Shown here: in pieces, positions 10,199-29,511 of the stretch
Numbering within the stretch: position 1 is the first letter of the stretch
How the letters are laid out: every line of letters starts with the position of its first letter
Sequence record: PZ445489.1
DNA length: 64,000 bases
DNA from: a phage
Direction: 5' to 3' (one strand)
Position numbers and translations under genes: made by a program
The notes under the pieces: generated by a model
What the model was told of the DNA's origin: nothing
Databases searched by the model: none
The model's input: only the letters and a program-made list of their open reading frames with translations

Positions 10199-10681
10199 AT
10201 GGAAGAAAAATACAAAGAAATAGTGGGGTTATTTGATTATAATCCAGAAACAGGGATATTTACCCATAAAGCTAGAGAAGATAAATCCTTCAATACTAGA
10301 TTTGCTGGCAAAGAAGCTGGTTCTCTAGAAAAATGCTCTGGATATATTGTAATGCAAGTAAAAGGCACTAAGTATTACGCGCATATCCTAGCATTCCTTA
10401 TCGTTAATGGGTATATTCCAAAGGAAGTAGATCACGATAATAGAATACGGCACGATAACCGAGCTATTAATTTAAAGGCCTCTGACAGACACAGTAATGG
10501 TAAAAATGTCGGGGCGCACAAAGATAATAAATTAGGTATTAAAAATATTCACCAAAAAGCGAGTGGATCTTACCAGGTACAGATAGCCCGTAAAGGTGTA
10601 AAATATACTAAAACATTCAAAGAACTTGAGGATGCTATAGAGTGGCGCGATATGAAACTATTGGAGCTTGATAGTTTATAA
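10199..10681 (+). CDS. HNH homing endonuclease
   Basis: HNH-like VDHDNRIRHDNRAINL plus C-terminal AP2-like DNA-binding region; sits between nrdA and nrdB. Confidence 0.7.
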   Translation: MEEKYKEIVGLFDYNPETGIFTHKAREDKSFNTRFAGKEAGSLEKCSGYIVMQVKGTKYYAHILAFLIVNGYIPKEVDHDNRIRHDNRAINLKASDRHSNGKNVGAHKDNKLGIKNIHQKASGSYQVQIARKGVKYTKTFKELEDAIEWRDMKLLELDSL

Positions 10682-10729
10682 TTTTACTTGCTAATCGCTA
10701 CCAGATTTGCTATAATATTCCTGAAATAG
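10676..10729 (+). promoter_or_regulatory. T5-type early promoter
   Basis: TTGCTA 10688-10693, 17-nt spacer, TATAAT 10711-10716. Confidence 0.6.
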
Positions 10730-10747
10730 TGAGAAAGAGGAAAATCA

Positions 10748-11893
10748 ATGACTACTTTACTAAACCTGAATTGGGATCATACTAATGCTGACCTTTTCCT
10801 GGGAGATTCTCTCGGTATCGCAGATTATGTACGTGTAGCACATCCAGAACTAGAACGTCTGGCACTTCTGCAACGCTCTCAATTTTGGACTGAAACTGAG
10901 ATCAGTCTGGAAGCAGATAAGAAACAATGGCCTAACCTCCCACGGGAAATTCAGGAAATTACACTCCTGAACTTAGCATGGCAGACTCAAACAGACTCCT
11001 TTATCAGTCGTGCTCCTGAAGCAGCTATTATGCCACTTGTAAGTCGTCCAGAATTGGAAGGTATGCTCAAACAGTGGAGCTATTTTGAAGACCTGCATAG
11101 TCGTGCTTATAGCAATATTATTCGTAATGTGCTGACTGACCCAGCAGAATTTATTGATTCTGTAACCAAAAACCAAGAAGCATTCGCACGCATCGCTGAT
11201 TCTGTTGAACTATTCGATGAACTGTACCTGTTAGGTCAGTATTTCATTGCAGTACGCGATCATCGTGGCGACAATACATACCCAGAAACTGAGTTCCCTG
11301 AAGTTAAACGTGAAACTCAGGCTAAACTATTAGACGCTTACTTTGCGATCTACGGTCTGGAAGCAATGCAGTTTTACGCATCCTTTGCATGTACCTTTGC
11401 ATTAGCAGAGAATGATATTCTGCAAGGTATTGCTAAAAATCTGCAATTAATCGCTAAAGATGAAGCTCTGCATACTCAGATGTCCAAAGCAATCATCCAG
11501 ATTATGTTTCAGCAATTTGACAAAGATCTGGTAGATGAAGCAGTGGCTAAAGCACCAGCACAGCTCCTGAAAACTCTGAAAACTGAAATTGAATGGGGTC
11601 ATTTCATTTTCAAAGGTCGTAGTCTGATTGGCTTGAACGCAGAACTTCTAGAAGAATATCTGTACTTTGTGGGGCGTAATGCATTTATGCACATTGGTGT
11701 AGAATGGCCTAGTCACTTACCAGTAATCACCAAAAACCCTATTCCGTGGATCATGAACTGGTTGGATACTACTTCTCTACAGCCTGCTCCACAAGAAATT
11801 CAGATTGGTGCAGCTTACCGTGTAGGTCAGGTAACTGAGACATCTACTGATACTCTGAAAGATCTGGGTAATGAATTTGGAGATTTCTTATGA
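10748..11893 (+). CDS. nrdB: ribonucleoside-diphosphate reductase beta subunit
   Basis: 381 aa; di-iron ligand motifs EDLHSRAY and EALHTQ. Confidence 0.9.
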   Translation: MTTLLNLNWDHTNADLFLGDSLGIADYVRVAHPELERLALLQRSQFWTETEISLEADKKQWPNLPREIQEITLLNLAWQTQTDSFISRAPEAAIMPLVSRPELEGMLKQWSYFEDLHSRAYSNIIRNVLTDPAEFIDSVTKNQEAFARIADSVELFDELYLLGQYFIAVRDHRGDNTYPETEFPEVKRETQAKLLDAYFAIYGLEAMQFYASFACTFALAENDILQGIAKNLQLIAKDEALHTQMSKAIIQIMFQQFDKDLVDEAVAKAPAQLLKTLKTEIEWGHFIFKGRSLIGLNAELLEEYLYFVGRNAFMHIGVEWPSHLPVITKNPIPWIMNWLDTTSLQPAPQEIQIGAAYRVGQVTETSTDTLKDLGNEFGDFL

Positions 11894-12423
11894 TTACAGC
11901 AATGTATGCAGTTGGGCCGAATGGGGAGTTCGGCCTCCGCGGTAAACTTCCATGGGGTTCCTTCAAAGAAGAACTAGATGCTTTCTATTCTCAACTGGAC
12001 GTGTTGAATCCAGATAACATCATCATTGGTGCGGGTACTTATTTAGCTCTTCCATACGCCGTTAGAGAACGTATGATTGGAGCTTCTGACCTATTTATTC
12101 GTGCTGATCGTCCACTGCCAGACGATATTACACATGATATTTACACTCCAATTTCTAAGATTGGGGATGCTTTACCTACATTTCTGAAAGATCAGCAGAC
12201 AGTAGTTCTAGGTGGGGCTAACCTTCTTCTAGAAATGTATATTCATGGACATATTGAAAGTGCTTTTGTATCCACAATCTTTAGTGATCAAAAACTAGAG
12301 GCAGATGTACATCTGGATAATACGATTCTAGATTACAACTACGAATCTACTCGTTTAGTTTACGCAACTGGCGCAAACAGTGATAACAGCCTGCGATTTG
12401 TACAGGAATTGGTTACTTATTAA
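11890..12423 (+). CDS. frd: dihydrofolate reductase
   Basis: 177 aa; N-terminal motif ending LPW; position between nrdB and thyA. Confidence 0.7.
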   Translation: MITAMYAVGPNGEFGLRGKLPWGSFKEELDAFYSQLDVLNPDNIIIGAGTYLALPYAVRERMIGASDLFIRADRPLPDDITHDIYTPISKIGDALPTFLKDQQTVVLGGANLLLEMYIHGHIESAFVSTIFSDQKLEADVHLDNTILDYNYESTRLVYATGANSDNSLRFVQELVTY

Positions 12424-13262
12424 TGCAACAATACTTAAAAATTTTGACAGATGTAACTTTACTAGGTGAACCCCGTAATGACCGTACAGGAACGGGCACA
12501 GTTTCAATTTTTGATTCCTATGCTAAGTTCGACCTACGTGAGGGATTCCCGGCTGTAACTACTAAACGCCTGGCCTGGAAATCAGTAGTAGGAGAACTCT
12601 TATGGTTCTTGTCTGGTTCCACAAATCTCCATGATCTACGTGTATTCACATTTGGTCGTGACGAAGGACAGTGGACCATCTGGACTCCAAATTATGAAGA
12701 CCAAGCTATAAGTATGGGGTATGATAAGGGTAATCTAGGACCAGTATATGGTAAACAGTGGCGCAACTTTGGTGGGCGAGATCAGATTCTAGAACTTATT
12801 GAAGGACTCAAGAATAATCCTCATGGCCGCAGACATCTAGTTTCTGCATGGAACGTAGCTGAACTTGATAAAATGGCATTACCACCCTGTCACTACGGCT
12901 TCCAGTGCTATGTAAGCAACGATGGATACCTAGATCTTAAATGGACACAACGTTCTGTAGACTGTTTTCTAGGCCTACCTTTCAATATTGCTAGTTATGC
13001 TTTATTAACACATATCCTGGCAAAACTGACCGGGTTAAAACCTCGCTACCTTATCTTTAGTGGCGGTGATACTCATATCTATAATGACCATATGGAACAG
13101 GTAGAAGAACAGGTAAAACGTAAACCTCGTTCTTTACCAACTCTAGTAATGCCAGAATTTGTAGATCTCTACGATTTACTGGAGAATAATACTGCAGCTT
13201 GGTCATTCCATTTAGAGGGGTACGATCCTCACCCAGCTCTTAAAGCTAAGATGTCTTCTTAA
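12423..13262 (+). CDS. thyA: thymidylate synthase
   Basis: Active-site LPPCHYGFQ and GGDTHIYNDH. Confidence 0.9.
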   Translation: MQQYLKILTDVTLLGEPRNDRTGTGTVSIFDSYAKFDLREGFPAVTTKRLAWKSVVGELLWFLSGSTNLHDLRVFTFGRDEGQWTIWTPNYEDQAISMGYDKGNLGPVYGKQWRNFGGRDQILELIEGLKNNPHGRRHLVSAWNVAELDKMALPPCHYGFQCYVSNDGYLDLKWTQRSVDCFLGLPFNIASYALLTHILAKLTGLKPRYLIFSGGDTHIYNDHMEQVEEQVKRKPRSLPTLVMPEFVDLYDLLENNTAAWSFHLEGYDPHPALKAKMSS

Positions 13263-13267
13263 CTCAA

Positions 13268-13295
13268 ATAGCCCTTTCGGGGGCTATTATATTTA
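13268..13295 (+). terminator. hairpin terminator after thyA
   Basis: tagccctttcgggggcta hairpin then AT-rich run. Confidence 0.45.
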
Positions 13296-13345
13296 AATTT
13301 CATTTGCTTATTTAGTGAAATTTAAATATAATATATTTTATAAAT
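13292..13345 (+). promoter_or_regulatory. T5-type early promoter
   Basis: TTGCTT 13304-13309, 17-nt spacer, TATAAT 13327-13332. Confidence 0.6.
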
Positions 13346-13357
13346 TGGAGGTATACA

Positions 13358-13639
13358 ATGATTTCAGCCAAAGAAGCCCAAGAACTTGCAGGATTAACAG
13401 AAGTACCCGCATTTCTAAAGTTTATAGAAGAAAAGATTGTAGAAGCTGCTAAGTCTGGAAATACAGAAGTAATTATTCGAGATAATCCTTACGCTAGGTG
13501 GCTATATAATCCTAGAGAAATGCCAGGAGCAGCTAAATCGGTACTAAAAACCTTATCGGATAAGGGGTATCATCTCTCACAATACTACCGAGAAGCCGCC
13601 TTTGTAGACATGGGTCTTAAAATTAGTTGGGAGGTATAA
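13358..13639 (+). CDS. hypothetical protein (93 aa)
   Basis: ORF with GGAGG RBS after promoter. Confidence 0.5.
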   Translation: MISAKEAQELAGLTEVPAFLKFIEEKIVEAAKSGNTEVIIRDNPYARWLYNPREMPGAAKSVLKTLSDKGYHLSQYYREAAFVDMGLKISWEV

Positions 13640-14115
13640 TGTCGGTTTTCCACATTTATACAGATGGTGCTTGTAAGTCTAACCCAGGTCCAGGTGCCTG
13701 GGGTTTTATTGTCTATGATGATAACGACGATCGTTTAGGTTCTAAATCTGGTTATAATCCTAAAACTACAAATAATGAGATGGAACTCACAGCTATCGTA
13801 GAAGCCCTACGTTGGTCTGTTAAAAAAGATAATAGACCAATTGCTATCTATACTGACTCTGCTTATTGCAAAAATGGTATGGAAAGTTGGATGTTTTCTT
13901 GGCAAAGGAAAGGCTGGAAGAAAGCAGATGGTGAAGTTCCTCTTAATCTAGAACTTTGGCAGGAAGCATTTAAATTAACACAGCAGTATATCAACTTTCA
14001 TAATACTAATCCTACCTTTATTAAGGTTAAAGGACATTCTGGTATTAGTGGTAATGAAGCTGTAGATGCATTGTGTAACACAGTTATTACTGAGCAAGAA
14101 CTTGCCGAGATGTGA
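13639..14115 (+). CDS. rnhA: ribonuclease H
   Basis: YTDGACKSNPGPGAWG, TNNEMEL, DSAY motifs; ATG 13639 after GGGAGG (track start 13627 is TTG). Confidence 0.8.
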   Translation: MSVFHIYTDGACKSNPGPGAWGFIVYDDNDDRLGSKSGYNPKTTNNEMELTAIVEALRWSVKKDNRPIAIYTDSAYCKNGMESWMFSWQRKGWKKADGEVPLNLELWQEAFKLTQQYINFHNTNPTFIKVKGHSGISGNEAVDALCNTVITEQELAEM

Positions 14116-14123
14116 TAAATAAA

Positions 14124-14177
14124 TTAAAAATCTTCTTGCTTAAAGCCCTCTAATTTAGTATAATATTCGTATTGAAA
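14124..14177 (+). promoter_or_regulatory. T5-type early promoter
   Basis: TTGCTT 14136-14141, 17-nt spacer, TATAAT 14159-14164. Confidence 0.6.
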
Positions 14178-14191
14178 GTGAGGAGGGCTTT

Positions 14192-14470
14192 ATGCGAATT
14201 TATAACTCAAATTCATTAGGATTTAAACCGTTGAGAAAACGTGCACAATCACCTCGTCAAATAAGAAAGGCTAATATTGGTGAGCCAGAGACACGTCTTC
14301 CGCCTCCTCCAGAACAACGTTTAGTTTATCTGGACGAAGAGTTAGCTGAACGCGAAAGAAAAGCTCAAGAAGAGATTGAGCGTAAGAAAATGTGTACTGC
14401 TCCAGCGTATAATAAAGGAGCGTATCAATATGTTTCCGACGCAGAACAAGCTAAGATGGTTGGTAGATAA
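14192..14470 (+). CDS. hypothetical protein (92 aa)
   Basis: ORF with GAGGAGG RBS. Confidence 0.5.
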   Translation: MRIYNSNSLGFKPLRKRAQSPRQIRKANIGEPETRLPPPPEQRLVYLDEELAERERKAQEEIERKKMCTAPAYNKGAYQYVSDAEQAKMVGR

Positions 14471-14471
14471 T

Positions 14472-14535
14472 TTTTAAAAAATTCATTTGCTAAACGCTTC
14501 AAATTCTTGTATAATATACTTCATAAATTGATAAA
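14472..14535 (+). promoter_or_regulatory. T5-type early promoter
   Basis: TTGCTA 14487-14492, 17-nt spacer, TATAAT 14510-14515, leader CATAAATTGATAAAC. Confidence 0.7.
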
Positions 14536-14553
14536 CAAAAAGGAAAACAAATA

Positions 14554-15069
14554 ATGGCTAAGCAGAAAAACGCAAAAACTCAAGCAGCTACTACAGTTAA
14601 AACTTTCCCGCAGACTGAGGCTAACCGCAAAGCTCGTCTGGAACGCCACCTGCGCAAGCACCCTACTGATGCTCAAGCTGCACAGGCACTGAATCGTCCG
14701 GCTCCGATTCGTCAAAAGCCGAAGGCTAAGAACGCTACTCGTTCTGTAGCCCGCCTTGTGACCTATGTACAAGGTTATGGTCACAAATCTGTTCCAGTAA
14801 CACTGAGTTTCAATGCTGGTGCAGAATTGTTCCCTCGTAATGGCATGGCCATGAAAGATTACGAGAAAGCAGTTAACCAGAAACGCAAACCAACGGCAGA
14901 TGTACTGCGTGATGCTCGTGGACAGTTTGGTTCTGTTAAGCCAAATATCTTCGGTGTAGAGTATAGCAAAGATAACGTTCGTGCTCTGTGTTACGGTGTA
15001 GGCATTAAGTTCACGGGTGATTCTGCTCGTAAATCTGCTAAACCAGCTCGCAAGCGTAAAGCGAAGTAA
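14554..15069 (+). CDS. basic Lys/Arg-rich protein, possible nucleic-acid binding (171 aa)
   Basis: Lys/Arg/Ala-rich composition, host-like codon usage. Confidence 0.5.
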   Translation: MAKQKNAKTQAATTVKTFPQTEANRKARLERHLRKHPTDAQAAQALNRPAPIRQKPKAKNATRSVARLVTYVQGYGHKSVPVTLSFNAGAELFPRNGMAMKDYEKAVNQKRKPTADVLRDARGQFGSVKPNIFGVEYSKDNVRALCYGVGIKFTGDSARKSAKPARKRKAK

Positions 15070-15072
15070 TAG

Positions 15073-15100
15073 ATAAGTAGGGGCGAAAGCCCCTACAATC
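15073..15100 (+). terminator. hairpin gtaggggcgaaagcccctac
   Basis: GC-stem hairpin right after stop; weak T-run. Confidence 0.4.
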
Positions 15101-15133
15101 TACTAATTCTCTAACTAATCAAGGATATTTTTT

Positions 15134-15349
15134 ATGTTCTCTAAGAAACCACGTTCTGTTACTGAAATCGTTGCTTCCTTTACCACTATCACTGATGAGC
15201 TTCAAGCTCGTATTGAGGCTGATCAAAAAATCGCAGCTGATATTCAGAAACAGCAGGAAGAACTCGCTTTAAAGTTGGCTGAAACTAACAAGAGTGAAAA
15301 GTCTGCCCAAACTATTATGGAAAATATCCTTAAACTGCTGGGCAAGTGA
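15134..15349 (+). CDS. hypothetical protein (71 aa)
   Basis: ORF. Confidence 0.45.
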   Translation: MFSKKPRSVTEIVASFTTITDELQARIEADQKIAADIQKQQEELALKLAETNKSEKSAQTIMENILKLLGK

Positions 15350-15355
15350 TTTAAA

Positions 15356-15385
15356 TCAGGGGGCGAAAGCCCCTCTTATTTGGAG
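15356..15385 (+). terminator. hairpin agggggcgaaagccccct
   Basis: Hairpin right after stop, followed by TTATTT. Confidence 0.4.
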
Positions 15386-15390
15386 AAACT

Positions 15391-15627
15391 ATGCGTAATT
15401 TTGTAGCAAAGAATGATTTTAACCGTGCTAGCACCCATAAGTCCACTAGAGATTATACACGACTTTCTAGTCATGAGGTAATGGATACCTGTTATGAAGA
15501 GCTGGAAGGTAGCTGGAATGAATGGCCTGACTTTTCTATGGAAGAGAACTGGGATGTCAGTGAGGATATGCTTCCTGGTTTTAAAGACCCCAAGAAGTGG
15601 GAGTCTATTAAAGAGACAGCTCTTTAA
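15391..15627 (+). CDS. hypothetical acidic protein (78 aa)
   Basis: ORF. Confidence 0.45.
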   Translation: MRNFVAKNDFNRASTHKSTRDYTRLSSHEVMDTCYEELEGSWNEWPDFSMEENWDVSEDMLPGFKDPKKWESIKETAL

Positions 15628-15655
15628 TAGTTTTCTACACAATAAAGGATAAGTT

Positions 15656-16357
15656 ATGAAAGTAAAACCATTTGGTATGCTAGATATTGAATCTCTAGGA
15701 ACTCCGGGAGATTGTGGTACTACTCATATTGTAATGCCTTCTTTCGCTTTTGTGGCTATGCATGGGATTGATAAAGACCCTGATCTAGTGTTTGTTACTT
15801 TAGATGTACAAGATCAGCTTAATTCTGGAGCTAAAGTTACGGCATCTACTCTAGCATTCTGGATGGATCAAGCTAAACATAGCCCGTCTGCTATCCACAT
15901 TATGGAAGCTATGAAGGAACGTAATCCAAAACTGATTGCCTTCCAAAATGGTAAACATCATTGCACTAATAAACTCGGCTCTAACTATGCTGCCTTCTCT
16001 ATGGCTAAAAACATTATGGAATTGGCTCTAGGCGACAATGCTTTGTACTATGGCAATGGCCCAGAGTTTGATATGACTATCTACTCTGCAAATACGTTCC
16101 ATGCTGGAACCAATGAAGAGGTAGTTCCGTGGAAATTCTGGAATTTGGGCAATGTTCGATCTCTTCGTAATCTCTGGATGCAAGCTGGATACAGTTATAA
16201 GGCTCTAGAGACCGAAGGTATTAGCTGGGCAATAGCTAAAATGGAGAAGATGGACACTATTCGTTATGGGATCTATCCGGTTAAGCATGATCCTGCATTT
16301 GATGCCTTAGTTGAAAGCTATTGTGTTGCAGCTATGATCGAAAAAATGAAAATTTGA
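15656..16357 (+). CDS. DEDD-type 3'-5' exonuclease-like protein
   Basis: N-terminal LDIESLG (DxE) and C-terminal HDPAFDAL resemble DnaQ-like exonuclease motifs; weak. Confidence 0.4.
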   Translation: MKVKPFGMLDIESLGTPGDCGTTHIVMPSFAFVAMHGIDKDPDLVFVTLDVQDQLNSGAKVTASTLAFWMDQAKHSPSAIHIMEAMKERNPKLIAFQNGKHHCTNKLGSNYAAFSMAKNIMELALGDNALYYGNGPEFDMTIYSANTFHAGTNEEVVPWKFWNLGNVRSLRNLWMQAGYSYKALETEGISWAIAKMEKMDTIRYGIYPVKHDPAFDALVESYCVAAMIEKMKI

Positions 16358-19255: not shown

Positions 19256-20048
19256 CAGCGAGCCGATTACGCTGAACTTGTCTTAATGTAAGATGCGTCG
19301 AGCACTAAGATTCGTTGAATAGAGTCGGTAGGTTAGTTGTAAAACTAGTACACAGGGGGCGGCAATCCCGGTTAGTGGCTAGAACGTGTAAAATGAGGCG
19401 TCTGAAACCTCTCCCCTAAACTCTTCTCTAATTTATAAATAGTGGGGTGTGGAAATCACTTATGTAGTAACACTGCCGTCCTAGTATAATTGGTATTATC
19501 AAGCCGTAACTGGTGGAAGATATAGATTCGAATCCTACGGTCGGTAAGAACTGGATAACTGATGCTTTTAACGTAAAAGCTTCCGAGGTTAGTTGCGCAC
19601 TGCCTAAACCACGCGGTAGTTGGTTCCAGGCTAACCAACCAGTCTGCTGAATAGTTTTATTACGATTTAACTATGTCCAGGCTAAAGAAGAACTTTAGAA
19701 GGTATTCTAGGATAGTGAAGTTTTTTCTCCATATCGGAGTAGTTTTTCAAGCTATCCACAAAGTGGGAAATGCTGACATGAGAGATGTCACTAATGGTGC
19801 ACAATAGCACAGGTAATTCGCGATAACTCCTGTTGAGTAGCAGCAAAAGGCGGGAAGTCATGACCCCAAGCCTAACCGAGTCCTCAATATACCGCAGGAC
19901 ATAACCACTAAGTCACCCTGACTTAAACTGGAAAATAATAGACGTTACTGTATTTTGTCTTGAAATACTTAATGAGTGAGACTTATGACTCTCCCGGTAT
20001 CGTCTGTATTTTTAAGAGTTTTTACGAGAGTTCTTAAAAATATTTAAA
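19256..20048 (+). ncRNA. promoter-driven ORF-free structured region (function unknown)
   Basis: About 790 nt with no ORF over 10 codons with RBS on + strand; hairpins and a T-loop-like GATTCGAATCC; precedes tRNA-Arg. Confidence 0.3.
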
Positions 20049-23635: not shown

Positions 23636-23655
23636 TATAATATATCTTATAAATT
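23600..23655 (+). promoter_or_regulatory. T5-type promoter inside 3' end of CDS, upstream of tRNAs
   Basis: TTGCTA 23613-23618, 17-nt spacer, TATAAT 23636-23641. Confidence 0.55.
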
Positions 23656-23656
23656 C

Positions 23657-23745
23657 GGAAGAATAGCATAACGGTATTGCAGCAGATTGCTAATCTGTCG
23701 GTTTGAAATATAGCCTTGTGGGTTCGATTCCCGCTTCTTCCGCCA
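23657..23745 (+). tRNA. tRNA-Ser (anticodon GCT)
   Basis: Acceptor ggaagaa/ttcttcc, anticodon loop TTGCTAA, 19-nt variable arm, T-loop TTCGATT, CCA. Confidence 0.7.
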
Positions 23746-23751
23746 AATTCT

Positions 23752-23829
23752 GGTTCTCAAGCTCATATGGTATGAGCACCCGGCTCATAACCGGAAGGTA
23801 CGTAGGTTCGAATCCTCGGGGAGCCACCA
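23752..23829 (+). tRNA. tRNA with anticodon CAT (Met, fMet or Ile2 undetermined)
   Basis: Acceptor ggttctc/gggagcc (2 G-U), anticodon loop CTCATAA, T-loop TTCGAAT, CCA; T-stem has 2 mismatches. Confidence 0.55.
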
Positions 23830-23848
23830 AATTAAATAGAGGTCACAA

Positions 23849-24037
23849 ATGGATCTATATATAGTTTATGTTGTGTTTATCCAAGATAGAGAATACCCGG
23901 ATGAATATAAAAAAGGATATAGGTTAGCCAGAGCTACCTCTGAAGCCCAAGCTATGGATAAAGTGGCAGATTATATGATTACGGTAGAAAACATACACTA
24001 TATCGACTACCTTGAAGCCTCAAAAGTAATTGACTAA
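23849..24037 (+). CDS. hypothetical protein (62 aa)
   Basis: ORF with GAGG RBS. Confidence 0.4.
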   Translation: MDLYIVYVVFIQDREYPDEYKKGYRLARATSEAQAMDKVADYMITVENIHYIDYLEASKVID

Positions 24038-24046
24038 GGAGACTAT

Positions 24047-24232
24047 ATGTCTAAGTTTCAAGAACTCAAGCAAGAGCTAGAAGAATGTGCCTGCCCTGAG
24101 TGTAGAGGAATTGGTGAAAGTTCTGATGCAGAAGCAGGAGATACTTTTTGCAATATCTGGGTTTGCCCAAATTGCAATGGTACAGGTATTAATCCTAACT
24201 GTGGTATTTCCCTAGATATTGAACGAGGATAA
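24047..24232 (+). CDS. Cys-rich zinc-ribbon-like protein (61 aa)
   Basis: CACPECRG...CPNCNG paired CxxC motifs. Confidence 0.4.
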   Translation: MSKFQELKQELEECACPECRGIGESSDAEAGDTFCNIWVCPNCNGTGINPNCGISLDIERG

Positions 24233-24333
24233 TACCTGTAAAACTAAAAGATTATTATATTGGTTGGTTTGTGGGACTAGTAGTAGGATTTTCACTAGGC
24301 TATAATATGTATCAACTAATAAACTGATTACAC

Positions 24334-24410
24334 GGGGGTGTAATCGAATTGGCATAGGTACTGGACTTAAAATTCAGGTTTTGTGGGTTCGAATCCCACC
24401 ACCCCTACCA
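24334..24410 (+). tRNA. tRNA, anticodon TAA (Leu codon UUA) with short variable loop
   Basis: Acceptor gggggtg/cacccct, anticodon stem ctgga/ttcag, loop CTTAAAA, T-loop TTCGAAT, CCA. Confidence 0.55.
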
Positions 24411-24425
24411 AACTAAGGAAATAAG

Positions 24426-24593
24426 ATGTATAGACATCCACCTCCGCCAACACGTCGTTCTAGAGAAGTTATCCTCATGGAATTGACTAAAAACTTCAAG
24501 GCAACTCTTGAAGATAGAGATCTAGGTACAGATGAAGACGTTGATTTCATTTGTAAACTATTAAAAATGAAGCTGGAGAAACATCATGGCTAA
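24426..24593 (+). CDS. hypothetical protein (55 aa)
   Basis: ORF with AAGGAA RBS; stop overlaps next start. Confidence 0.4.
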   Translation: MYRHPPPPTRRSREVILMELTKNFKATLEDRDLGTDEDVDFICKLLKMKLEKHHG

Positions 24594-24792
24594 CCGTGAA
24601 ATTACTATGCAACGAATCATGACTAAAGGCATGATAGCCGAGGCAGGTATTGAACAAGAAGTAAAAGGCTATTACGAACAGATTAAGACTATTATAGACT
24701 CTGCTAAAAACACCGGAGAAAAAGAACACGGTGCAGCAATTATGGCTATAACTCTTATTAGCCTAGACTTAGCTGAAGAATCTGGAGTTTAG
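24586..24792 (+). CDS. hypothetical protein (68 aa)
   Basis: ORF, ATGGCTAA overlap with upstream ORF. Confidence 0.45.
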   Translation: MANREITMQRIMTKGMIAEAGIEQEVKGYYEQIKTIIDSAKNTGEKEHGAAIMAITLISLDLAEESGV

Positions 24793-24809
24793 CTCCTCCA
24801 AACAGAATT

Positions 24810-24868
24810 TTTAAAAATGTACTTGCCTTTTGCTTTAAATTTCTGATATAATAGTTGTATAAATTGAT
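24810..24868 (+). promoter_or_regulatory. T5-type early promoter
   Basis: TTGCCT 24823-24828, 18-nt spacer, TATAAT 24847-24852. Confidence 0.6.
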
Positions 24869-24882
24869 GAAGGAGTTAACGA

Positions 24883-25158
24883 ATGCAAAATCGTGTTGTA
24901 GCAACTGGTATTGAAAGTGCAATCTGCAAATCCTGGGAAGACTGGGAAGGTGAGATTGAGTGGCTCTATCTCTATAACGTAGATCTTCTACCGGAGGTTA
25001 AAGCTAAATGTATTGAAGCTGGCATGGCTCCAGATGCAAAAGCTGATATTGATATTTCAATGTCTGAACTTAAAGGTCGTGTAATTACTGTTAGTGATGA
25101 GGGCGAAGAAGTTTTCGAACTTCCGTTCTCCTTAACTGTCACTCCTAAGTTCGACTAA
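24883..25158 (+). CDS. hypothetical protein (91 aa)
   Basis: ORF with AAGGAG RBS. Confidence 0.5.
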   Translation: MQNRVVATGIESAICKSWEDWEGEIEWLYLYNVDLLPEVKAKCIEAGMAPDAKADIDISMSELKGRVITVSDEGEEVFELPFSLTVTPKFD

Positions 25159-25181
25159 CTAATACAGCACTGAGCAAGTTC

Positions 25182-25238
25182 TTTAAAATTTGACTTGCTC
25201 AGTGCCTTAAAACTTGGTATAATATTTACCTAATTTGG
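25182..25238 (+). promoter_or_regulatory. T5-type promoter upstream of tRNA block
   Basis: TTGCTC 25195-25200, 16-nt spacer, TATAAT 25217-25222. Confidence 0.55.
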
Positions 25239-25288
25239 AAACATATTTAAAAGTGTTTAAATGAGAATTTTTGAATACTTCTAAATAT

Positions 25289-25379
25289 GTTGGATTAGTA
25301 TCGTAGAGGTAGCGAAGCAGACTGTAAATCTGCCGACTCGGAAGGGTCTCGGGTGGTTCGACTCCATCATCCAACACCA
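25289..25379 (+). tRNA. tRNA-Tyr (anticodon GTA)
   Basis: Acceptor gttggat/atccaac, anticodon stem gcaga/tctgc, loop CTGTAAA, 18-nt variable arm, T-loop TTCGACT, CCA. Confidence 0.7.
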
Positions 25380-25386
25380 AATTTAA

Positions 25387-25463
25387 GTCCTGTTAGACAA
25401 ACTGGTAAAGTCACTACCCTTTCAAGGTAGGATTTGCGGGTTCGATCCCCGCACAGGACGCCA
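25387..25463 (+). tRNA. tRNA-Glu (anticodon TTC)
   Basis: Acceptor gtcctgt/acaggac, anticodon stem ctacc/ggtag, loop CTTTCAA, T-loop TTCGATC, CCA. Confidence 0.7.
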
Positions 25464-25471
25464 ATTTCTGC

Positions 25472-25548
25472 ATTCCTAGAGTGTTACTGGACAGCATGTC
25501 GGTCTCCAAAACCGTACGGTCTAGGTTCGAGTCCTAGTAGGTTTGCCA
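25472..25548 (+). tRNA. tRNA-Trp (anticodon CCA), possibly degenerate
   Basis: Perfect T-arm ctagg-TTCGAGT-cctag, anticodon loop CTCCAAA, CCA; acceptor stem has two U-U mismatches. Confidence 0.5.
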
Positions 25549-25554
25549 AAATTT

Positions 25555-25629
25555 GCACCTTTAGCTGAGATGGATTAGCGCTTGCCTGAAGAGCTTGAGA
25601 GGTTCGTTCGATACGAACAGGGTGCACCA
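25555..25629 (+). tRNA. tRNA-Phe (anticodon GAA)
   Basis: Acceptor gcacctt/agggtgc, T-arm gttcg-TTCGATA-cgaac, loop CTGAAGA; anticodon stem has 2 mismatches. Confidence 0.5.
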
Positions 25630-25646
25630 AATTGAAGGAGCTGCTG

Positions 25647-25919
25647 ATGCATCCTGAAAACTTCTTTATTTACTGCGCTGATAAGTCGCTAAAACGTAGA
25701 ATTAACAAAGTCTACCATTATCGTGCTAGTCAACAGCCTTATGTATATGCTTTTGACGGTGATCACATTCCATTAGAACAATTATCTTGTGATTACATGA
25801 TATTAAAGAACTTTGACGAGACGAAGATCTCAAGCGTTCACAATCGGCAGAATCCATTAACGTGGAAATATAAGAAGAAAAAGAAAGGCATCAAATTCTT
25901 AAAAAATATAGTTGCTTAG
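25647..25919 (+). CDS. hypothetical protein (90 aa)
   Basis: ATG 25647 after AAGGAG RBS (track start 25632 is TTG). Confidence 0.5.
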   Translation: MHPENFFIYCADKSLKRRINKVYHYRASQQPYVYAFDGDHIPLEQLSCDYMILKNFDETKISSVHNRQNPLTWKYKKKKKGIKFLKNIVA

Positions 25920-25955
25920 TTTCCAAAAGTTCTGTATAATAATTACATAAATTGA
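25898..25955 (+). promoter_or_regulatory. T5-type promoter
   Basis: TTGCTT 25912-25917, 17-nt spacer, TATAAT 25935-25940. Confidence 0.55.
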
Positions 25956-25988
25956 ACTGGAGAAGCAACATGACAGAACAAGATAAAC

Positions 25989-26064
25989 CGACCGTTGGCT
26001 GAATGGCTTAGGCGAAGGATTGCAAATCCTTTTTATGTGAGTTCAAATCTCATGCGGTCGTCCA
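25989..26064 (+). tRNA. tRNA-Cys (anticodon GCA)
   Basis: Acceptor cgaccgt/gcggtcg, anticodon stem aagga/tcctt, loop TTGCAAA, T-loop TTCAAAT, CCA. Confidence 0.65.
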
Positions 26065-26071
26065 AATTTTA

Positions 26072-26154
26072 GGGTCGTTAGCCAAGCGGTTTGGCGGTGG
26101 ACTGTTAATCCATGTCGAAAGACAACGTAGGTTCGAATCCTACACGGCCCGCCA
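26072..26154 (+). tRNA. tRNA-Asn (anticodon GTT) with 13-nt variable hairpin
   Basis: Acceptor gggtcgt/acggccc, D-stem gcca/tggc, anticodon loop CTGTTAA, variable gtcGAAAgac, T-arm gtagg-TTCGAAT-cctac, CCA. Confidence 0.6.
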
Positions 26155-26256
26155 AATTCTGTGTAGAGTTAAGTAAACCGGTAGCCAACCAGCTATCATT
26201 GCTGACATCGAATTCAGCCACAGATACCATTTTCATTAATAACTGAGGAAACAAGC

Positions 26257-26442
26257 ATGTCCAAGAATGTAATTGCGCAGCTAGAAGTTCATCGTGATAG
26301 CACTATCAACAATATTGAAGTTGAAAAGAAATACATCGAAGAACTTAAACATGATATACTAGTGAGTCTCAACCGTCTTAATGTACGAAAAGAGTTTCTT
26401 AAAGAACTTAATGCAGCTATTGAAAAACTCAAAGCTGAGTAA
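26257..26442 (+). CDS. hypothetical protein (61 aa)
   Basis: ORF with GAGGAA RBS. Confidence 0.45.
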   Translation: MSKNVIAQLEVHRDSTINNIEVEKKYIEELKHDILVSLNRLNVRKEFLKELNAAIEKLKAE

Positions 26443-26451
26443 ATGAATTAT

Positions 26452-26528
26452 GCGACCGGGGCTGGCTTGGTAATGGTACTCCCCTGTCACGGGAGAGAAT
26501 GTGGGTTCAAATCCCATCGGTCGCGCCA
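26452..26528 (+). tRNA. tRNA-Asp (anticodon GTC)
   Basis: Perfect acceptor gcgaccg/cggtcgc, anticodon stem ctccc/gggag, loop CTGTCAC, T-loop TTCAAAT, CCA. Confidence 0.75.
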
Positions 26529-26554
26529 AATTAATTTAGTATGAGAAATATGCT

Positions 26555-26902
26555 ATGATTAATGCTAAAGAAGAATTGTTACTTGCCCTAAAGAATACTA
26601 ATTCTGAAGTTAAGTGTATTAAGATAGAATTCGGTTATTATGGAGACAAAGAAGTTTGGGTATTACCCGTAGGTTATACAGAAAAAGATATTGAAGATTT
26701 TCTAAATAATCTAGACTTTAAATATGATTCTGGTTTCGGTGGACAATTGCTTTATGGTAACGTATGGTTTACTGATGGAACTTGGTTAGAACGTGGTGAA
26801 TATGATGGTTCTGAATGGTGGGAATATAAGACTACACCAGCAATTCCAGAGGAATGCCGAACAATTAATGGTGAAGTAGATCGTACTTTACTATTAAATT
26901 AA
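26555..26902 (+). CDS. hypothetical protein (115 aa)
   Basis: ORF. Confidence 0.5.
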   Translation: MINAKEELLLALKNTNSEVKCIKIEFGYYGDKEVWVLPVGYTEKDIEDFLNNLDFKYDSGFGGQLLYGNVWFTDGTWLERGEYDGSEWWEYKTTPAIPEECRTINGEVDRTLLLN

Positions 26903-27024
26903 CAAAATCTCAGTGCAGAACACGGAGCTAGCAATTCGGAAGTGCTGACTCATGATAAGCTGCCTATGTACTTGCGAAGCGGTCGTGTCCAAGACTCGGA
27001 CTCTTGCACTGAAAACAATCAAAC

Positions 27025-27145
27025 ATTCTAGCGTGGTTGATGGGGAAACCAGCTTGGCTAGGGCAGAAGCTCGTTCGATTCGAGTGAAAGAATGGTTCTC
27101 GTAAGTCCGCACAAGTGATAGCAGGTTCGAGTCCTGTCTAGAATG
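27025..27145 (+). ncRNA. tRNA-like RNA with about 50-nt internal expansion (about 121 nt)
   Basis: Perfect 7-bp acceptor pairing attctag/ctagaat 113 nt apart, canonical T-arm gcagg-TTCGAGT-cctgt, D-arm-like hairpin; no normal anticodon arm. Confidence 0.35.
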
Positions 27146-27334
27146 ACATATTCTGGAGGTTTTGTGAATTACAAAGAATTAGATCTTTTAGCAAATAAAT
27201 TCACAGAGCTATCTGATAACGTTGTATCAAAGGACTCCAACATAGATAATTTTATTACTGAATATCGTGATGGTATAATCTCTAAACAAGAGTTGTTAGA
27301 TAAAACGTATAAATATTTAAAGGGGTTCAGCTAA
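27143..27334 (+). CDS. hypothetical protein (63 aa)
   Basis: ORF; start overlaps end of tRNA-like element; weak RBS. Confidence 0.35.
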   Translation: MTYSGGFVNYKELDLLANKFTELSDNVVSKDSNIDNFITEYRDGIISKQELLDKTYKYLKGFS

Positions 27335-27631
27335 ACGGTTAAGCACTGTCCTACTTCGGACAGAGGGAGTAACACGTAGTCTCCCAAACTCCCCCAAATT
27401 TAGATTTCTGCTTCCTAGAGAACGGACTTCTGAATAAACAAGGCGATGAAGTTTCCGGCCGGTTCTAGTCGCTAAAGTCCCTCTAACGGGGCGTAAGTAA
27501 ATGAAAGTTTACTTATTATGTAGGTTCCGATAGATCGGCGGGTCTATTCTGGCATTTAAGAGAGGTCTCGCAAACTTCTTTGTCAGCCGTGGGGTTGGTA
27601 GCCTCCAGGTGGCCTACACAATAAGTAAATT

Positions 27632-27692
27632 TATTAAAAATTCATTTGCTATTCTGCTATATTATCTGTATAATATATTTTATAAAGTGAAG
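27632..27692 (+). promoter_or_regulatory. T5-type early promoter
   Basis: TTGCTA 27646-27651, 17-nt spacer, TATAAT 27669-27674. Confidence 0.65.
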
Positions 27693-27706
27693 AGAAGGAA
27701 AGCAAA

Positions 27707-27865
27707 ATGAAACACAAGATAGCTCAAGTTTTTATGACATTATGGTGTATGCCAATAGCTATAACAGCATTTAATCTAGATACTTTTACTATAGAAGAAA
27801 AATGTATCGGATTAGTTAGCGGCTTTAGTATGCTGGGCTTATCTTTGTTGTGGTTGAAGAAATAA
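27707..27865 (+). CDS. small hydrophobic membrane protein (52 aa)
   Basis: ATG after GAAGGAAAG RBS and promoter; below ORF-track cutoff. Confidence 0.4.
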   Translation: MKHKIAQVFMTLWCMPIAITAFNLDTFTIEEKCIGLVSGFSMLGLSLLWLKK

Positions 27866-27868
27866 TAT

Positions 27869-27946
27869 TCTCCGTGTAGCTCAGTTTGGCCAGAGCGTTT
27901 CGTTTGGGGCGATAGGGTCGGGGGTTCAAATCCTCCCACGGAGACC
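27869..27946 (+). tRNA. tRNA-Pro (anticodon TGG)
   Basis: Acceptor ctccgtg/cacggag, D-arm TAGCTCAGTTTGGCCAGAGC, loop TTTGGGG, T-loop TTCAAAT, CCA. Confidence 0.65.
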
Positions 27947-27952
27947 AAACAA

Positions 27953-28030
27953 TTGCGGGTTAGATCTCTGGTAGAGATCGCTAGTCTCATAAGCTAGAAA
28001 GAGGTAGGTTCGATTCCTGCACCCGCTTCC
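27953..28030 (+). tRNA. tRNA with anticodon CAT (Met, fMet or Ile2 undetermined)
   Basis: D-stem gatc/gatc, anticodon stem ctagt/gctag, loop CTCATAA, T-loop TTCGATT, CCA; position 1:72 is U-U. Confidence 0.6.
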
Positions 28031-28220
28031 ACTTTAATAGAGGATTTCGAAATGAAAGTATTTCGATTAGTAGTAAGTGACAAACGTTTAGGTAATAATA
28101 CCTCAAGATCCTTACTTGCACATTATGGTAAAAATTGGGATGAAGTAATGGCAGAGTTTAATACTAATCACCCTTACTTGAAAGTTCACTCTATTAAAGA
28201 GGTATATAATGGTTACTAAT

Positions 28221-28298
28221 AGATCGCTAGCTCAACTGGATAAGAGTAGCGGACCTTTAATCCGTCAGTTCTGGGTTCGAATCCCAGGCGATCTACCA
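28221..28298 (+). tRNA. tRNA-Lys (anticodon TTT)
   Basis: Acceptor agatcgc/gcgatct, D-arm GCTCAACTGGATAAGAGT, loop CCTTTAA, T-arm ctggg-TTCGAAT-cccag, CCA. Confidence 0.65.
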
Positions 28299-28302
28299 AA
28301 TT

Positions 28303-28376
28303 GCTCGGTTAGTTTAATGGGAGAACCCCGTCTTTACACGGCGGTTGTGATAGTTCGATTCTATCACCGAGTACCA
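28303..28376 (+). tRNA. tRNA-Val (anticodon TAC)
   Basis: Acceptor gctcggt/accgagt, anticodon stem ccgtc/ggcgg, loop TTTACAC, T-arm gatag-TTCGATT-ctatc, CCA. Confidence 0.65.
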
Positions 28377-28395
28377 ATTAACTCAAAATAAGGAA

Positions 28396-28764
28396 TTGCA
28401 AATGCAATTATCAAACAAGATTCAAGGTTATTTCGGTCATGTGACAATGGAGTTCGCATTGCAGCATGGCTGGGATATGGAAAAAGATCTATCGGAATTT
28501 TATGAGTCTCATAAAGAGATTGATCTTAGTTCTGTCTATTTGGGATTATCTACTGGTCAAGAACTTACAGAATATGATGTATTCAAGGCAAGTCAAGGTG
28601 AGATAACACCTAGTTTTGCCGAGTTCTGGCTAGGAATTACCTTGAAGGATAATGCACCAGATGAAGGTGTGGTTATGCAAAGTATGCACTCTGGAAGCTC
28701 TGATTACCTTTACGTTCGTGATGTAAAGGAACTACAGGAAATCGCTAAAAATGTACTTGCTTAA
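28396..28764 (+). CDS. hypothetical protein (122 aa)
   Basis: ORF with AAGGAA RBS. Confidence 0.5.
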   Translation: MQMQLSNKIQGYFGHVTMEFALQHGWDMEKDLSEFYESHKEIDLSSVYLGLSTGQELTEYDVFKASQGEITPSFAEFWLGITLKDNAPDEGVVMQSMHSGSSDYLYVRDVKELQEIAKNVLA

Positions 28765-28803
28765 TGCTTAATTTCTTGTTATAATATTTATATAAATTGA
28801 TGC
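28743..28803 (+). promoter_or_regulatory. T5-type promoter (overlaps 3' end of CDS)
   Basis: TTGCTT 28757-28762, 17-nt spacer, TATAAT 28780-28785. Confidence 0.6.
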
Positions 28804-29124
28804 GAAAATAGCTGCCTAGATACCAGGTGTATGACGTCTACACTAGCAGAGCTACCGAAAAAGAGATCCTCAGGATAAACGTCGTAGCAAAATTAGTCTG
28901 GTATCCATCAATTTAGTTCACTAAGGTATTAGCTCGACCTAGGACTGGCTGCCAAAAAGCACGATCCCTACAATTCGGGAGAAGTTCTAGATTAGTCCAC
29001 TAGATTCAGCGGCAACTGAATAGTGTATCGGGTTTGCGAGATGACGCAGTTCCTTCCGCTCGAAGCGAAGGTGCTGTAGTTACGCCGAGCTAATAGCCTT
29101 AGTAAACTTACAGGGGTTAACGCA

Positions 29125-29511
29125 GTGTGTACAAAAACATGTAGAGCCTGTGGGAATGAATATCCGTTAACAACCGAATATTTTTATTCGAATGGATTTA
29201 CTCCTAATGGCACAAAGAAGTGGAAGCCAACATGTAAAGCATGTGAAAAAGCTGAACGAGTAGCTGGACATGAAGAATTAATTAAAGAAGTATTTCCTGT
29301 ATTAGAATGTAGTATTTGTGGATATAATAGGTGTAAACAAGCCCTAGATTTCCACCGTACTAATCCAGAAGAAAAGGAATACTCCATTGCAAGGTTTAGA
29401 ACTTCTCGTAGAAACAGAGAAGTAGTAATAGCAGAACTTAAAAAGTGCGTACTATTATGCTCTAACTGCCATAGAGAAGTACATGCTGGATTAATAAATT
29501 TGGGCGAATAG
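29125..29511 (+). CDS. HNH endonuclease
   Basis: C-terminal LLCSNCHREVHAG HNH motif plus CxxC pairs; GTG start; stop codon lies inside tRNA-Ala acceptor stem. Confidence 0.6.
   Translation: MCTKTCRACGNEYPLTTEYFYSNGFTPNGTKKWKPTCKACEKAERVAGHEELIKEVFPVLECSICGYNRCKQALDFHRTNPEEKEYSIARFRTSRRNREVVIAELKKCVLLCSNCHREVHAGLINLGE

What the first reader, a model, noticed from the sequence alone, without database searches (positions are those of the whole stretch)
10199..29511. Free-standing homing endonucleases at gene junctions
An HNH gene sits between nrdA and nrdB (10199-10681). A second GTG-initiated HNH gene (29125-29511) ends inside the acceptor stem of tRNA-Ala and follows a promoter-driven 330-nt ORF-free leader. 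A weak GIY-YIG-like ORF (49373-49729) abuts the region boundary. These are typical of mobile endonuclease insertions.
Basis: partly seen in the sequence, partly recalled or inferred. Interest (0 to 1): 0.4.

Follow-up and report, generated by a model that had tools for sequence, protein, structure and literature searches.

The report
Mobile endonuclease genes in T5-like phage
The window comes from a T5-like phage that carries two inserted HNH homing-endonuclease genes and one small GIY-YIG-type gene, which is ordinary for this phage family; the "leader" in front of the second HNH gene is a separate, already catalogued stable RNA gene of unknown function.

Summary
The window is a T5-like phage (Tequintavirus).

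- **HNH-1 (10199-10681):** it has a Pfam HNH_3 match. It lies in a 538-nt cassette between nrdA and nrdB, where phage Elw has only a 36-nt terminator. About 11% of relatives carry the cassette. It sits in a 640-nt Kenya-K44-like patch on an otherwise Elw-like backbone, which looks like a gene-conversion footprint.
- **HNH-2 (29125-29511):** it starts with GTG and is a clean 384-nt insertion in the 9-10-nt spacer before tRNA-Ala. T5 shows the empty site. Its stop codon is tRNA nucleotides 8-10. This copy has Arg at residue 78, where all 29 aligned homologs have His, so it may be inactive.
- **The "leader":** it is not a leader made for HNH-2. It is the homolog (28927-29098, 97% identical) of T5 RNA2H, annotated as a "stable RNA with unknown functions", behind promoter P13b. 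It is present in phages that lack HNH-2. Its fold is supported by covariation, and Rfam has no match.
- **ORF3 (49373-49729):** it is a clear T5orf172/MUG113 protein (GIY-YIG subfamily) with patchy distribution. It consists of the nuclease domain only, so a homing role is unproven.

The parts
10042..10141 (+). Last ~100 nt of nrdA, a probable co-conversion tract
   Evidence: It is 80% identical to Elw, against 98-100% for the rest of nrdA. It is 99% identical to the HNH-bearing phage Kenya-K44.
10142..10679 (+). HNH-1 cassette, comprising a hairpin and the ORF
   Evidence: It replaces 36 nt (a terminator hairpin) of Elw. Homology to Elw resumes at 10680. The cassette is present in 48 of 445 records, always at the nrdA|nrdB junction.
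10147..10166 (+). Terminator-like hairpin AAGGGGAC-ATAC-GTCCCCTT upstream of HNH-1
   Evidence: Predicted by folding. It is kept with compensatory changes in Eps7, FFH1 and phC17.
10199..10681 (+). HNH-1 gene (160 aa, HNH_3 family)
   Evidence: Pfam HNH_3 at 5.5e-9 and phrog_99 at 4e-49. It is 36% identical to T5 hegH, which lies in the same intergenic region but on the other side of the promoter.
10688..10716 (+). nrdB promoter (TTGCTA-17-TATAAT), shared with the empty-site phage
   Evidence: Read directly from the sequence and identical in Elw. T5 annotates a promoter at the corresponding place.
28757..28785 (+). Promoter, homolog of T5 P13b (TTGCTT-17-TATAAT with a TG extension)
   Evidence: Invariant in 12 phages. 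Annotated as promoter P13b in AY543070.
28803..28914 (+). Optional 112-nt structured module in the 5' part of the transcript
   Evidence: It replaces a 22-nt hairpin found in T5, NBSal003 and SA001. About 85 of 431 records carry it. One compensatory pair, 28824/28901, is seen. Fold z-score is -2.3.
28927..29098 (+). Homolog of T5 RNA2H (stable RNA, function unknown)
   Evidence: It is 97.1% identical over all 172 nt to the AY543070 misc_RNA rna2H. The fold is supported by covariation. The covariance model scores 244 bits on the + strand and 34 bits on the - strand. Rfam has no match.
29109..29492 (+). 384-nt HNH-2 insertion in the RNA2H/tRNA-Ala spacer (boundaries good to about 3 nt)
   Evidence: The gap from the RNA2H anchor to tRNA-Ala is 393 nt here and 9-10 nt in T5, TrudiRoth, JNwz02, SB9 and NBSal003.
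29125..29511 (+). HNH-2 gene (128 aa, zinc-finger HNH), GTG start
   Evidence: phrog_2255 at 4.6e-31. The family profile hits McrA at 2e-5. The AlphaFold2 model has pLDDT 88.8, and its best PDB matches are beta-beta-alpha-Me nucleases with weak E-values.
29356..29358 (+). Codon 78, CGT (Arg) where homologs have His
   Evidence: His in 29 of 29 aligned homologs, including a 99%-identical protein. Elw has CAT at this codon.
29502..29576 (+). tRNA-Ala(UGC); its first 10 nt are the last 10 nt of the HNH-2 ORF
   Evidence: ARAGORN and Rfam both call it. The allele is identical in T5, where HNH-2 is absent.
49373..49729 (+). ORF3, a T5orf172/MUG113 (GIY-YIG subfamily) domain-only protein of 118 aa

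Best explanation
HNH-1 and HNH-2 are free-standing homing-endonuclease genes of the kind long known in T5 and T4. Each is a self-contained cassette inserted into a short intergenic spacer next to a highly conserved gene.

**How they are thought to spread (inferred).** In a mixed infection the enzyme cuts the empty allele near the insertion point. Repair from the occupied genome then copies the cassette across, together with some flanking DNA. For HNH-1 the footprint of such a transfer is visible in this window.

**How HNH-2 is probably expressed (inferred).** HNH-2 landed between the stable RNA gene RNA2H and tRNA-Ala. It is therefore transcribed from promoter P13b as the middle part of an RNA2H-HNH-tRNA precursor. 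RNase P cleavage at the tRNA 5' end would remove the last two codons and the stop codon. Excision of RNA2H would cut off the 5' end. Only unprocessed precursor could then give full-length protein, which would keep expression low.

**State of this copy (inferred).** The HNH-2 copy here carries H78R at the position of the general-base His and is probably inactive or weakened.

**ORF3.** It is a patchily distributed T5orf172 nuclease-domain protein. It may be mobile, but its role is open.
For: **HNH-1**
- Domain support.
- Precise empty site in Elw.
- Three occupancy states of the nrdA|nrdB junction: empty in Elw; HNH-1 upstream of the promoter here; and hegH (36% identical) downstream of the promoter in T5.
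- Present in 48 of 445 records.
- The window is 99-100% Elw-like on both sides. Across 10042-10741 it is 98-100% Kenya-K44-like, while Elw is 80% identical or lacks the sequence.

**HNH-2**
- Clean 384-nt insertion, with the empty site in T5 carrying the identical tRNA-Ala allele. The same ORF sits before a different tRNA-Ala allele in PHZ191, and a different ORF occupies the same spacer in bombadil.
- Rare among relatives.
- HNH signature and fold.
- T5 hegC and hegD also overlap the 5' end of a downstream tRNA.
- Lowered expression through tRNA processing is published for T4 SegB and was proposed for the T5 F-Tfl enzymes (PMC2330249).

**ORF3**
- Pfam hits.
- T5orf172 is described as a GIY-YIG subfamily enriched as homing-endonuclease genes in T5-like phages (PMC10448857).
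- Paralogs at several loci.
Against: - No cleavage activity or target site was tested for any of the three proteins.
- HNH-2 has no Pfam hit above threshold, and its fold matches have weak E-values.
- This HNH-2 copy lacks the near-invariant His78.
- HNH-2 shows no flanking divergence that would mark a co-conversion tract, because both flanks are nearly invariant.
- ORF3 lacks the zinc-finger DNA-binding domains that 87% of T5orf172 homing-endonuclease genes carry, and its model is of low confidence.
- The RNase P and RNA2H processing steps are inferred, not shown.
Confidence: 0.85

Rival explanations
1. The patchiness reflects repeated deletion of ancestral genes rather than insertion or homing.
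For: Presence/absence data alone cannot give the direction of change. The tRNA region of T5-like phages is rich in indels.
Against: The cassettes are rare (11% and about 3% of records). The HNH-1 cassette plus 100 nt of nrdA is Kenya-K44-like inside an Elw-like backbone, which needs a localized transfer. Related HNH_3 genes sit at two different points of the same junction. HNH-2 occurs with two different tRNA-Ala alleles.
Confidence: 0.08
2. The 330-nt stretch is a regulatory 5' UTR that evolved for HNH-2, for example a riboswitch or a guide-type RNA like the HEARO/IscB omega RNA.
For: It lies directly upstream of an HNH ORF, is structured (z = -4.4) and is transcribed from its own promoter.
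Against: It is present at 97% identity in T5 and in hundreds of phages that lack HNH-2. In T5 it is annotated as a processed stable RNA. Rfam, which includes HEARO, gives no hit at E<=10. The HNH-2 protein is 128 aa and has no RuvC domain.
Confidence: 0.03
3. The HNH-2 copy in this window is a decaying or domesticated gene that no longer homes.
For: Arg78 replaces a His that is conserved in 29 of 29 homologs. By analogy with colicin E7/E9 and McrA-type HNH motifs (my knowledge, not tested here), the second His of the HH pair is the general base. A 99%-identical protein with His exists.
Against: The ORF is otherwise intact and full length. A single A-to-G difference could be a sequencing error or a very recent mutation. 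Some beta-beta-alpha-Me enzymes tolerate changes at this position and keep nicking activity.
Confidence: 0.55
4. ORF3 is not a homing endonuclease. It is a nuclease-domain remnant or a protein with another role, such as defence against satellites or competing phages.
For: It has 118 aa, of which residues 6-97 are the T5orf172 domain, and no DNA-binding domain. Typical T5orf172 homing-endonuclease genes carry zinc-finger domains, and some family members are anti-satellite nucleases.
Against: Relatives keep the same short length at 63-97% identity with many invariant residues, which suggests selection. Distribution is patchy, with paralogs at several loci.
Confidence: 0.45

Closest known systems
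[quoted passage not shown]
   Same: They are free-standing HNH genes in the tRNA region and at the nrdA|nrdB junction of T5. hegC and hegD overlap the 5' end of the next tRNA, as HNH-2 does. HNH-1 and hegH are both HNH_3/phrog_99 proteins.
   Different: hegA, hegC and hegD are not present in the window. HNH-1 is only 36% identical to hegH and lies on the other side of the promoter. HNH-2 is a different, zinc-finger HNH type at a site that is empty in T5.
T4 MobE (HNH between nrdA and nrdB)
   Same: It is a free-standing HNH gene in the same intergenic position between the two ribonucleotide-reductase genes. This rests on my knowledge of Wilson and Edgell 2009 and was not tested here.
   Different: It belongs to an unrelated phage family. 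Sequence relatedness was not tested.
T4 SegB (GIY-YIG in the tRNA cluster)
   Same: It is a homing-endonuclease ORF that abuts a tRNA gene, so that tRNA processing cuts the mRNA at the end of the ORF and lowers expression (PMC2330249).
   Different: It uses a GIY-YIG rather than an HNH catalytic domain. In SegB the cut falls between the last codon and the stop codon. Here it would remove two codons plus the stop.
T5 RNA2H (misc_RNA in AY543070)
   Same: It is 97% identical over all 172 nt, with the same promoter and the same downstream tRNA-Ala.
   Different: In the window the transcript has an extra 112-nt 5' module, and an HNH gene lies between the RNA and the tRNA.
T5orf172-type homing-endonuclease genes (ICP1 and T5-like phages)
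   Same: ORF3 has the same Pfam domain, and its distribution is patchy and multi-locus.
   Different: ORF3 has no CapR, DUF723 or DUF4397 zinc-finger DNA-binding domain.

Membership tests
HNH (beta-beta-alpha-Me) nuclease: HNH-1 | Profile match above the curated threshold, with catalytic His and Asn present | tested here: met
   Pfam HNH_3 scores 36 bits against a cut-off of 24.8. The motif VDH...DNRAINL...SN is present.
HNH (beta-beta-alpha-Me) nuclease: HNH-2 | Profile match to an HNH model | tested here: inconclusive
   No Pfam HNH hit. However, phrog_2255 scores 4.6e-31, the family profile hits the McrA HNH domain at E=2e-5, and Foldseek's best hits are Hpy99I, Cap5 and Gme HNH, though only at E>=0.013.
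HNH (beta-beta-alpha-Me) nuclease: HNH-2 | Catalytic His, the second His of the HH pair | tested here: not met
   The window has Arg78, while 29 of 29 homologs have His. Zinc ligands C62, C65, C112 and C115, and H77, N114 and H116, are kept.
Free-standing homing endonuclease gene | Sporadic presence among close relatives, with precise empty sites | tested here: met
   HNH-1 is in 48 of 445 records, with the empty site in Elw. HNH-2 is in about 14 records, with empty sites in T5 and TrudiRoth. ORF3 is in about 49 records and absent from Elw and T5.
Free-standing homing endonuclease gene | Co-conversion of flanking DNA, seen as a localized mosaic patch | tested here: met
   Met for HNH-1 only: a Kenya-K44-like patch at 10042-10680 in an Elw-like backbone. 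Not resolvable for HNH-2, whose flanks are invariant.
Free-standing homing endonuclease gene | Site-specific cleavage of the allele that lacks the gene, and biased inheritance | not testable with these tools
   This needs enzyme assays and mixed infections.
GIY-YIG superfamily, T5orf172 subfamily: ORF3 | Profile match above threshold | tested here: met
   MUG113 scores 46.5 bits against 22.3, and T5orf172 scores 34.3 bits against 20.
GIY-YIG superfamily, T5orf172 subfamily: ORF3 | GIY-YIG fold | tested here: inconclusive
T5orf172 homing endonuclease architecture | Nuclease domain joined to a DNA-binding domain | tested here: not met
   Of 118 aa, the nuclease domain covers residues 6-97, and no second Pfam domain is found. 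The comparison with typical architecture comes from PMC10448857.
T5 RNA2H stable RNA | Sequence homology, same strand, same neighbours | tested here: met
   97.1% identity over 172 of 172 nt, lying between the P13b promoter and tRNA-Ala.
T5 RNA2H stable RNA | Accumulates as a processed RNA in infected cells | not testable with these tools
   Only the GenBank note 'stable RNA with unknown functions' is available. No paper on it is in the searchable library.

The most novel reading that the evidence does not exclude
RNA2H may be more than a processing by-product. It is a 172-nt RNA with five helices and at least one loop-to-junction pseudoknot. It is restricted to T5-like phages but nearly universal among them, and Rfam has no family for it. 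On the most novel reading it has an activity of its own, such as binding or decoying a host factor, or catalysis. Its invariant 3' end together with the tRNA-Ala 5' end would then be the recognition site that makes this spacer a recurrent landing pad for selfish genes. The excision of RNA2H and of the tRNA would jointly gate expression of whatever gene lands there.
Probability: 0.12. Interest if true: 0.55.

Novelty: already known. Interest (0 to 1): 0.22.

Why it matters
The practical value is in annotation. In the closest relative, Elw, HNH-2 and RNA2H are both unannotated, and nearly all of the 431 T5-like records leave the RNA2H region blank.

The HNH-1 locus is a clean worked example of a homing footprint: cassette, co-converted flank and empty site.

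The HNH-2 locus is another case where a selfish gene borrows its stop codon from a tRNA, which ties its expression to RNA processing.

RNA2H and its seven sibling stable RNAs remain uncharacterized structured RNAs in a model phage. The covariation-supported fold given here could serve as a starting point for an Rfam family and for experiments.

Tried and rejected
- **Rfam:** a scan of the whole window at gathering thresholds, and of 28380-29600 at E<=10, returned only tRNAs. No group I intron, HEARO, ROOL/GOLLD or ribozyme model matched the leader.
- **Sigma-70 pattern scan:** it missed the promoter because the -35 box is weak. The promoter was recovered through T5's annotation and the extended -10 box.
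- **Alternative RNA pairing:** the RNAalifold/MFE pairing of CCUAGGACU with AGUUCUAG was rejected in favour of the P3 hairpin plus a loop pseudoknot. In phage bobsandoy, four changes keep P3 perfect but break two pairs of the alternative.
- **Start-codon hairpin at HNH-1:** it looked attractive but is not conserved in Eps7, FFH1 or phC17, so I make no claim about it.
- **Origin of RNA2H outside T5-like phages:** there were no blastn hits in 5,426 E. coli genomes. A 21-base core motif gave no hit in 185,579 species genomes. The ten metagenome hits all look T5-like.
- **Literature on RNA2H or T5 stable RNAs:** nothing relevant was found in the library.
- **PDB sequence search with HNH-1:** no hit.
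- **Other endonuclease paralogs in the window:** a phmmer scan of all 397 ORFs of 50 aa or more with six endonuclease queries found none.

Full report
**Context.** The window is from a T5-like phage (Demerecviridae, Tequintavirus). It has 23-24 tRNA genes and the genes nrdA, nrdB, frd, td and phoH. Its DNA is 97-99% identical to Escherichia phage vB_EcoD-Elw and to Salmonella T5-like phages. It runs in the reverse of the usual T5 orientation. Position ~50.4 kb corresponds to the inner border of the left terminal repeat.

**HNH-1 (10199-10681).**
- The ORF lies between nrdA (stop at 10139) and nrdB (start at 10748). It matches Pfam HNH_3 above threshold, and phrog_99.
- In Elw the two nrd genes are 106 nt apart. 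Window 10142-10679 (538 nt) replaces 36 nt of Elw that form a terminator hairpin. Homology resumes exactly at the nrdB promoter.
- The cassette occurs in 48 of 445 T5-like records, always at this junction.
- T5 itself has a different HNH_3 gene there: hegH, "putative H-N-H-endonuclease P-TflVIII", 36% identical. It lies downstream of the promoter and abuts nrdB. The junction therefore exists in at least three states.
- In 100-nt bins the window is 99-100% identical to Elw on both sides of the cassette. Across 10042-10741 it is 98-100% identical to the HNH-bearing phage Kenya-K44, while Elw is 80% identical (last 100 nt of nrdA) or lacks the sequence.
- This is an Elw-like backbone with a ~640-nt Kenya-K44-like patch. 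That is the pattern expected from homing with co-conversion of one flank. It also suggests, by inference, that the recognition site lies in the 3' end of nrdA.
- The changes in the co-converted flank are almost all synonymous.

**HNH-2 (29125-29511).**
- The start is GTG. There is no internal Met, an AGGGG Shine-Dalgarno sequence lies 8 nt upstream, and PHZ191 has ATG at the same codon.
- Pfam gives no significant hit. Three HNH PHROGs match, the best at 4.6e-31. A profile of 30 homologs hits the HNH domain of E. coli McrA (E=2e-5).
- The AlphaFold2 model (pLDDT 88.8) is closest to the beta-beta-alpha-Me enzymes Hpy99I, Cap5 and Gme HNH, though with weak E-values.
- Using the invariant 3' end of the upstream RNA as an anchor, tRNA-Ala begins 393 nt downstream in the window, Elw, SA001 and PHZ191. 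It begins 9-10 nt downstream in T5, TrudiRoth, JNwz02, SB9, NBSal003 and others.
- T5 has exactly the same tRNA-Ala allele, so this is a clean 384-nt insertion into a 10-nt spacer. PHZ191 has the same ORF before a different tRNA-Ala allele. Phage bombadil has an unrelated 105-aa ORF in the same spacer. The spacer is a recurrent landing site.
- Close orthologs (60% aa identity or more) occur in only about 14 phage records.
- The last 10 nt of the ORF are the first 10 nt of the tRNA, and the stop codon TAG is tRNA positions 8-10. The same holds with the other tRNA-Ala allele in PHZ191.
- T5 hegC and hegD overlap tRNA-Ser and tRNA-Gln in the same way. The last 44 nt of hegD persist in this window although hegD is absent. 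In each case the tail of the endonuclease ORF is pre-existing spacer plus tRNA.
- RNase P cleavage at 29501|29502 would therefore yield an mRNA without a stop codon. For T4 SegB such processing has been shown to lower expression, and the same was proposed for the T5 F-Tfl enzymes (PMC2330249). For HNH-2 this step is inference.
- Residue 78 is Arg (CGT at 29356-29358). All 29 aligned homologs, including a 99%-identical protein and Elw (CAT), have His. This is the second His of the HH pair, which in colicin E7/E9-type HNH sites is the general base (my knowledge, not tested here). This copy may therefore be crippled.

**The "leader".**
- The 360-nt intergenic stretch is conserved in 431 T5-like records whether or not HNH-2 is present.
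- The T5 record AY543070 annotates promoter P13b and a misc_RNA "RNA2H, stable RNA with unknown functions" there. The window homolog is 28927-29098, with 97.1% identity over all 172 nt.
- On 27 distinct sequences, my hand-built structure has five helices (P1-P5), a pseudoknot between the P3 loop and junction J1/2, and a second possible loop contact.
- That structure has 97.9% of cells paired. Fourteen pairs change on both sides. The covariation score is 0.152, against 0.073 for shuffles (0 of 500 reach it) and 0.01-0.06 for slid controls.
- The sequences are closely related, so the independent events are few. They include a G-C to A-U change in P1, a two-pair swap in P2, a two-pair swap in P3 in bobsandoy, and a wholesale exchange of P5. 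The pseudoknots rest on invariant pairs plus one U-A to U-G change.
- The single-sequence fold has z = -4.4. A covariance model scores 244 bits on the + strand and 34 bits on the - strand, with one copy per genome.
- T5's annotated ends fall inside the long P1 helix and leave a short 3' overhang. That would fit RNase III-type excision, which is inference.
- Rfam has no match. The core motif is absent from E. coli genomes and from 185,579 species genomes.
- The window, like about 85 other records, also has a 112-nt structured module (28803-28914) between the promoter and RNA2H, in place of a 22-nt hairpin.
- All the other T5 stable RNAs (RNAX, RNA3, RNA2, RNAIV, RNA1, RNAI, RNAIII) have homologs in the window as well.

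**ORF3 (49373-49729).**
- It matches Pfam MUG113 (5.4e-12) and T5orf172 (3.6e-8), both above their cut-offs. T5orf172 is regarded as a GIY-YIG subfamily and as a common homing-endonuclease domain in T5-like and ICP1 phages (PMC10448857).
- Close orthologs are in about 49 records. More distant paralogs sit at various loci in about 210 more. Elw and T5 lack the ORF at this position.
- The protein is only the nuclease domain, whereas 87% of T5orf172 homing-endonuclease genes carry zinc-finger DNA-binding domains.
- The family assignment is sound. The homing role is open.

**Verdict.**
- Free-standing HNH genes in the T5 tRNA region and at nrdA|nrdB, tRNA-overlapping endonuclease ORFs, and RNA2H itself are all already on record. 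Orthologs of all three ORFs are annotated as endonucleases in GenBank.
- Three details are specific to this window: the gene-conversion patch at HNH-1, the H78R change in HNH-2, and the covariation-supported fold for RNA2H.

Noticed in passing
window 19480-20048, 26157-26229, 27024-27148, 27518-27620, 30158-30302, 30303-30409, 30414-30519: These are homologs (85-100% identical) of T5's other annotated stable RNAs of unknown function: RNAX, RNA3, RNA2, RNAIV, RNA1, RNAI and RNAIII. None is matched by Rfam except as tRNA-like neighbours.
   Followed up: partly
window 28803-28914: An optional 112-nt structured module lies between promoter P13b and RNA2H. It replaces a 22-nt hairpin found in T5. 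Its presence is independent of HNH-2. One compensatory pair (28824/28901) is seen.
   Followed up: partly
window 23752-23826: Rfam calls a tRNA here (40 bits) that ARAGORN did not list. It corresponds to the CAU-anticodon tRNA annotated in Elw and T5.
   Followed up: no
L006 (phage TrudiRoth) 1056-1131: The tRNA-Ala allele after RNA2H has one extra base in the anticodon loop. ARAGORN reports it as tRNA-??? with a four-base anticodon, tgca.
   Followed up: no
loci L003-L012, slot right after RNA2H: Three quite different tRNA-Ala(UGC) alleles occupy the same position in different T5-like phages. They are often followed by a second tRNA-Ala.
   Followed up: partly
window 30786-30829: The last 44 nt of T5 hegD (F-TflII) are present although hegD is absent. 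The C-terminal codons of that endonuclease are pre-existing spacer plus the 5' end of tRNA-Gln, as with HNH-2.
   Followed up: partly
phage records LR597663 (VpaE1_ev78) and NC_031242 (cyanophage S-RIM50): Distant homologs of HNH-2 in unrelated phages also lie against tRNA genes (tRNA-Trp and tRNA-Gly). This hints that the HNH subfamily prefers tRNA junctions.
   Followed up: no
window 49747-49776: A strong promoter-like site (TTGACA-18-TATAAT with a TG extension) lies directly after ORF3. It points into ~600 nt of non-coding DNA that corresponds to the border of T5's terminal repeat and its injection-stop-signal region.
   Followed up: no
window 48580-49961: This segment, which holds the 243-aa ORF and ORF3, is highly diverged from Elw but 98.7% identical to phage FFH_1. 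It is another mosaic block that ends at a nuclease gene.
   Followed up: partly
window 10175-10206: A predicted hairpin would bury the HNH-1 start codon. It is not conserved in Eps7, FFH1 or phC17, so it is probably not meaningful.
   Followed up: yes
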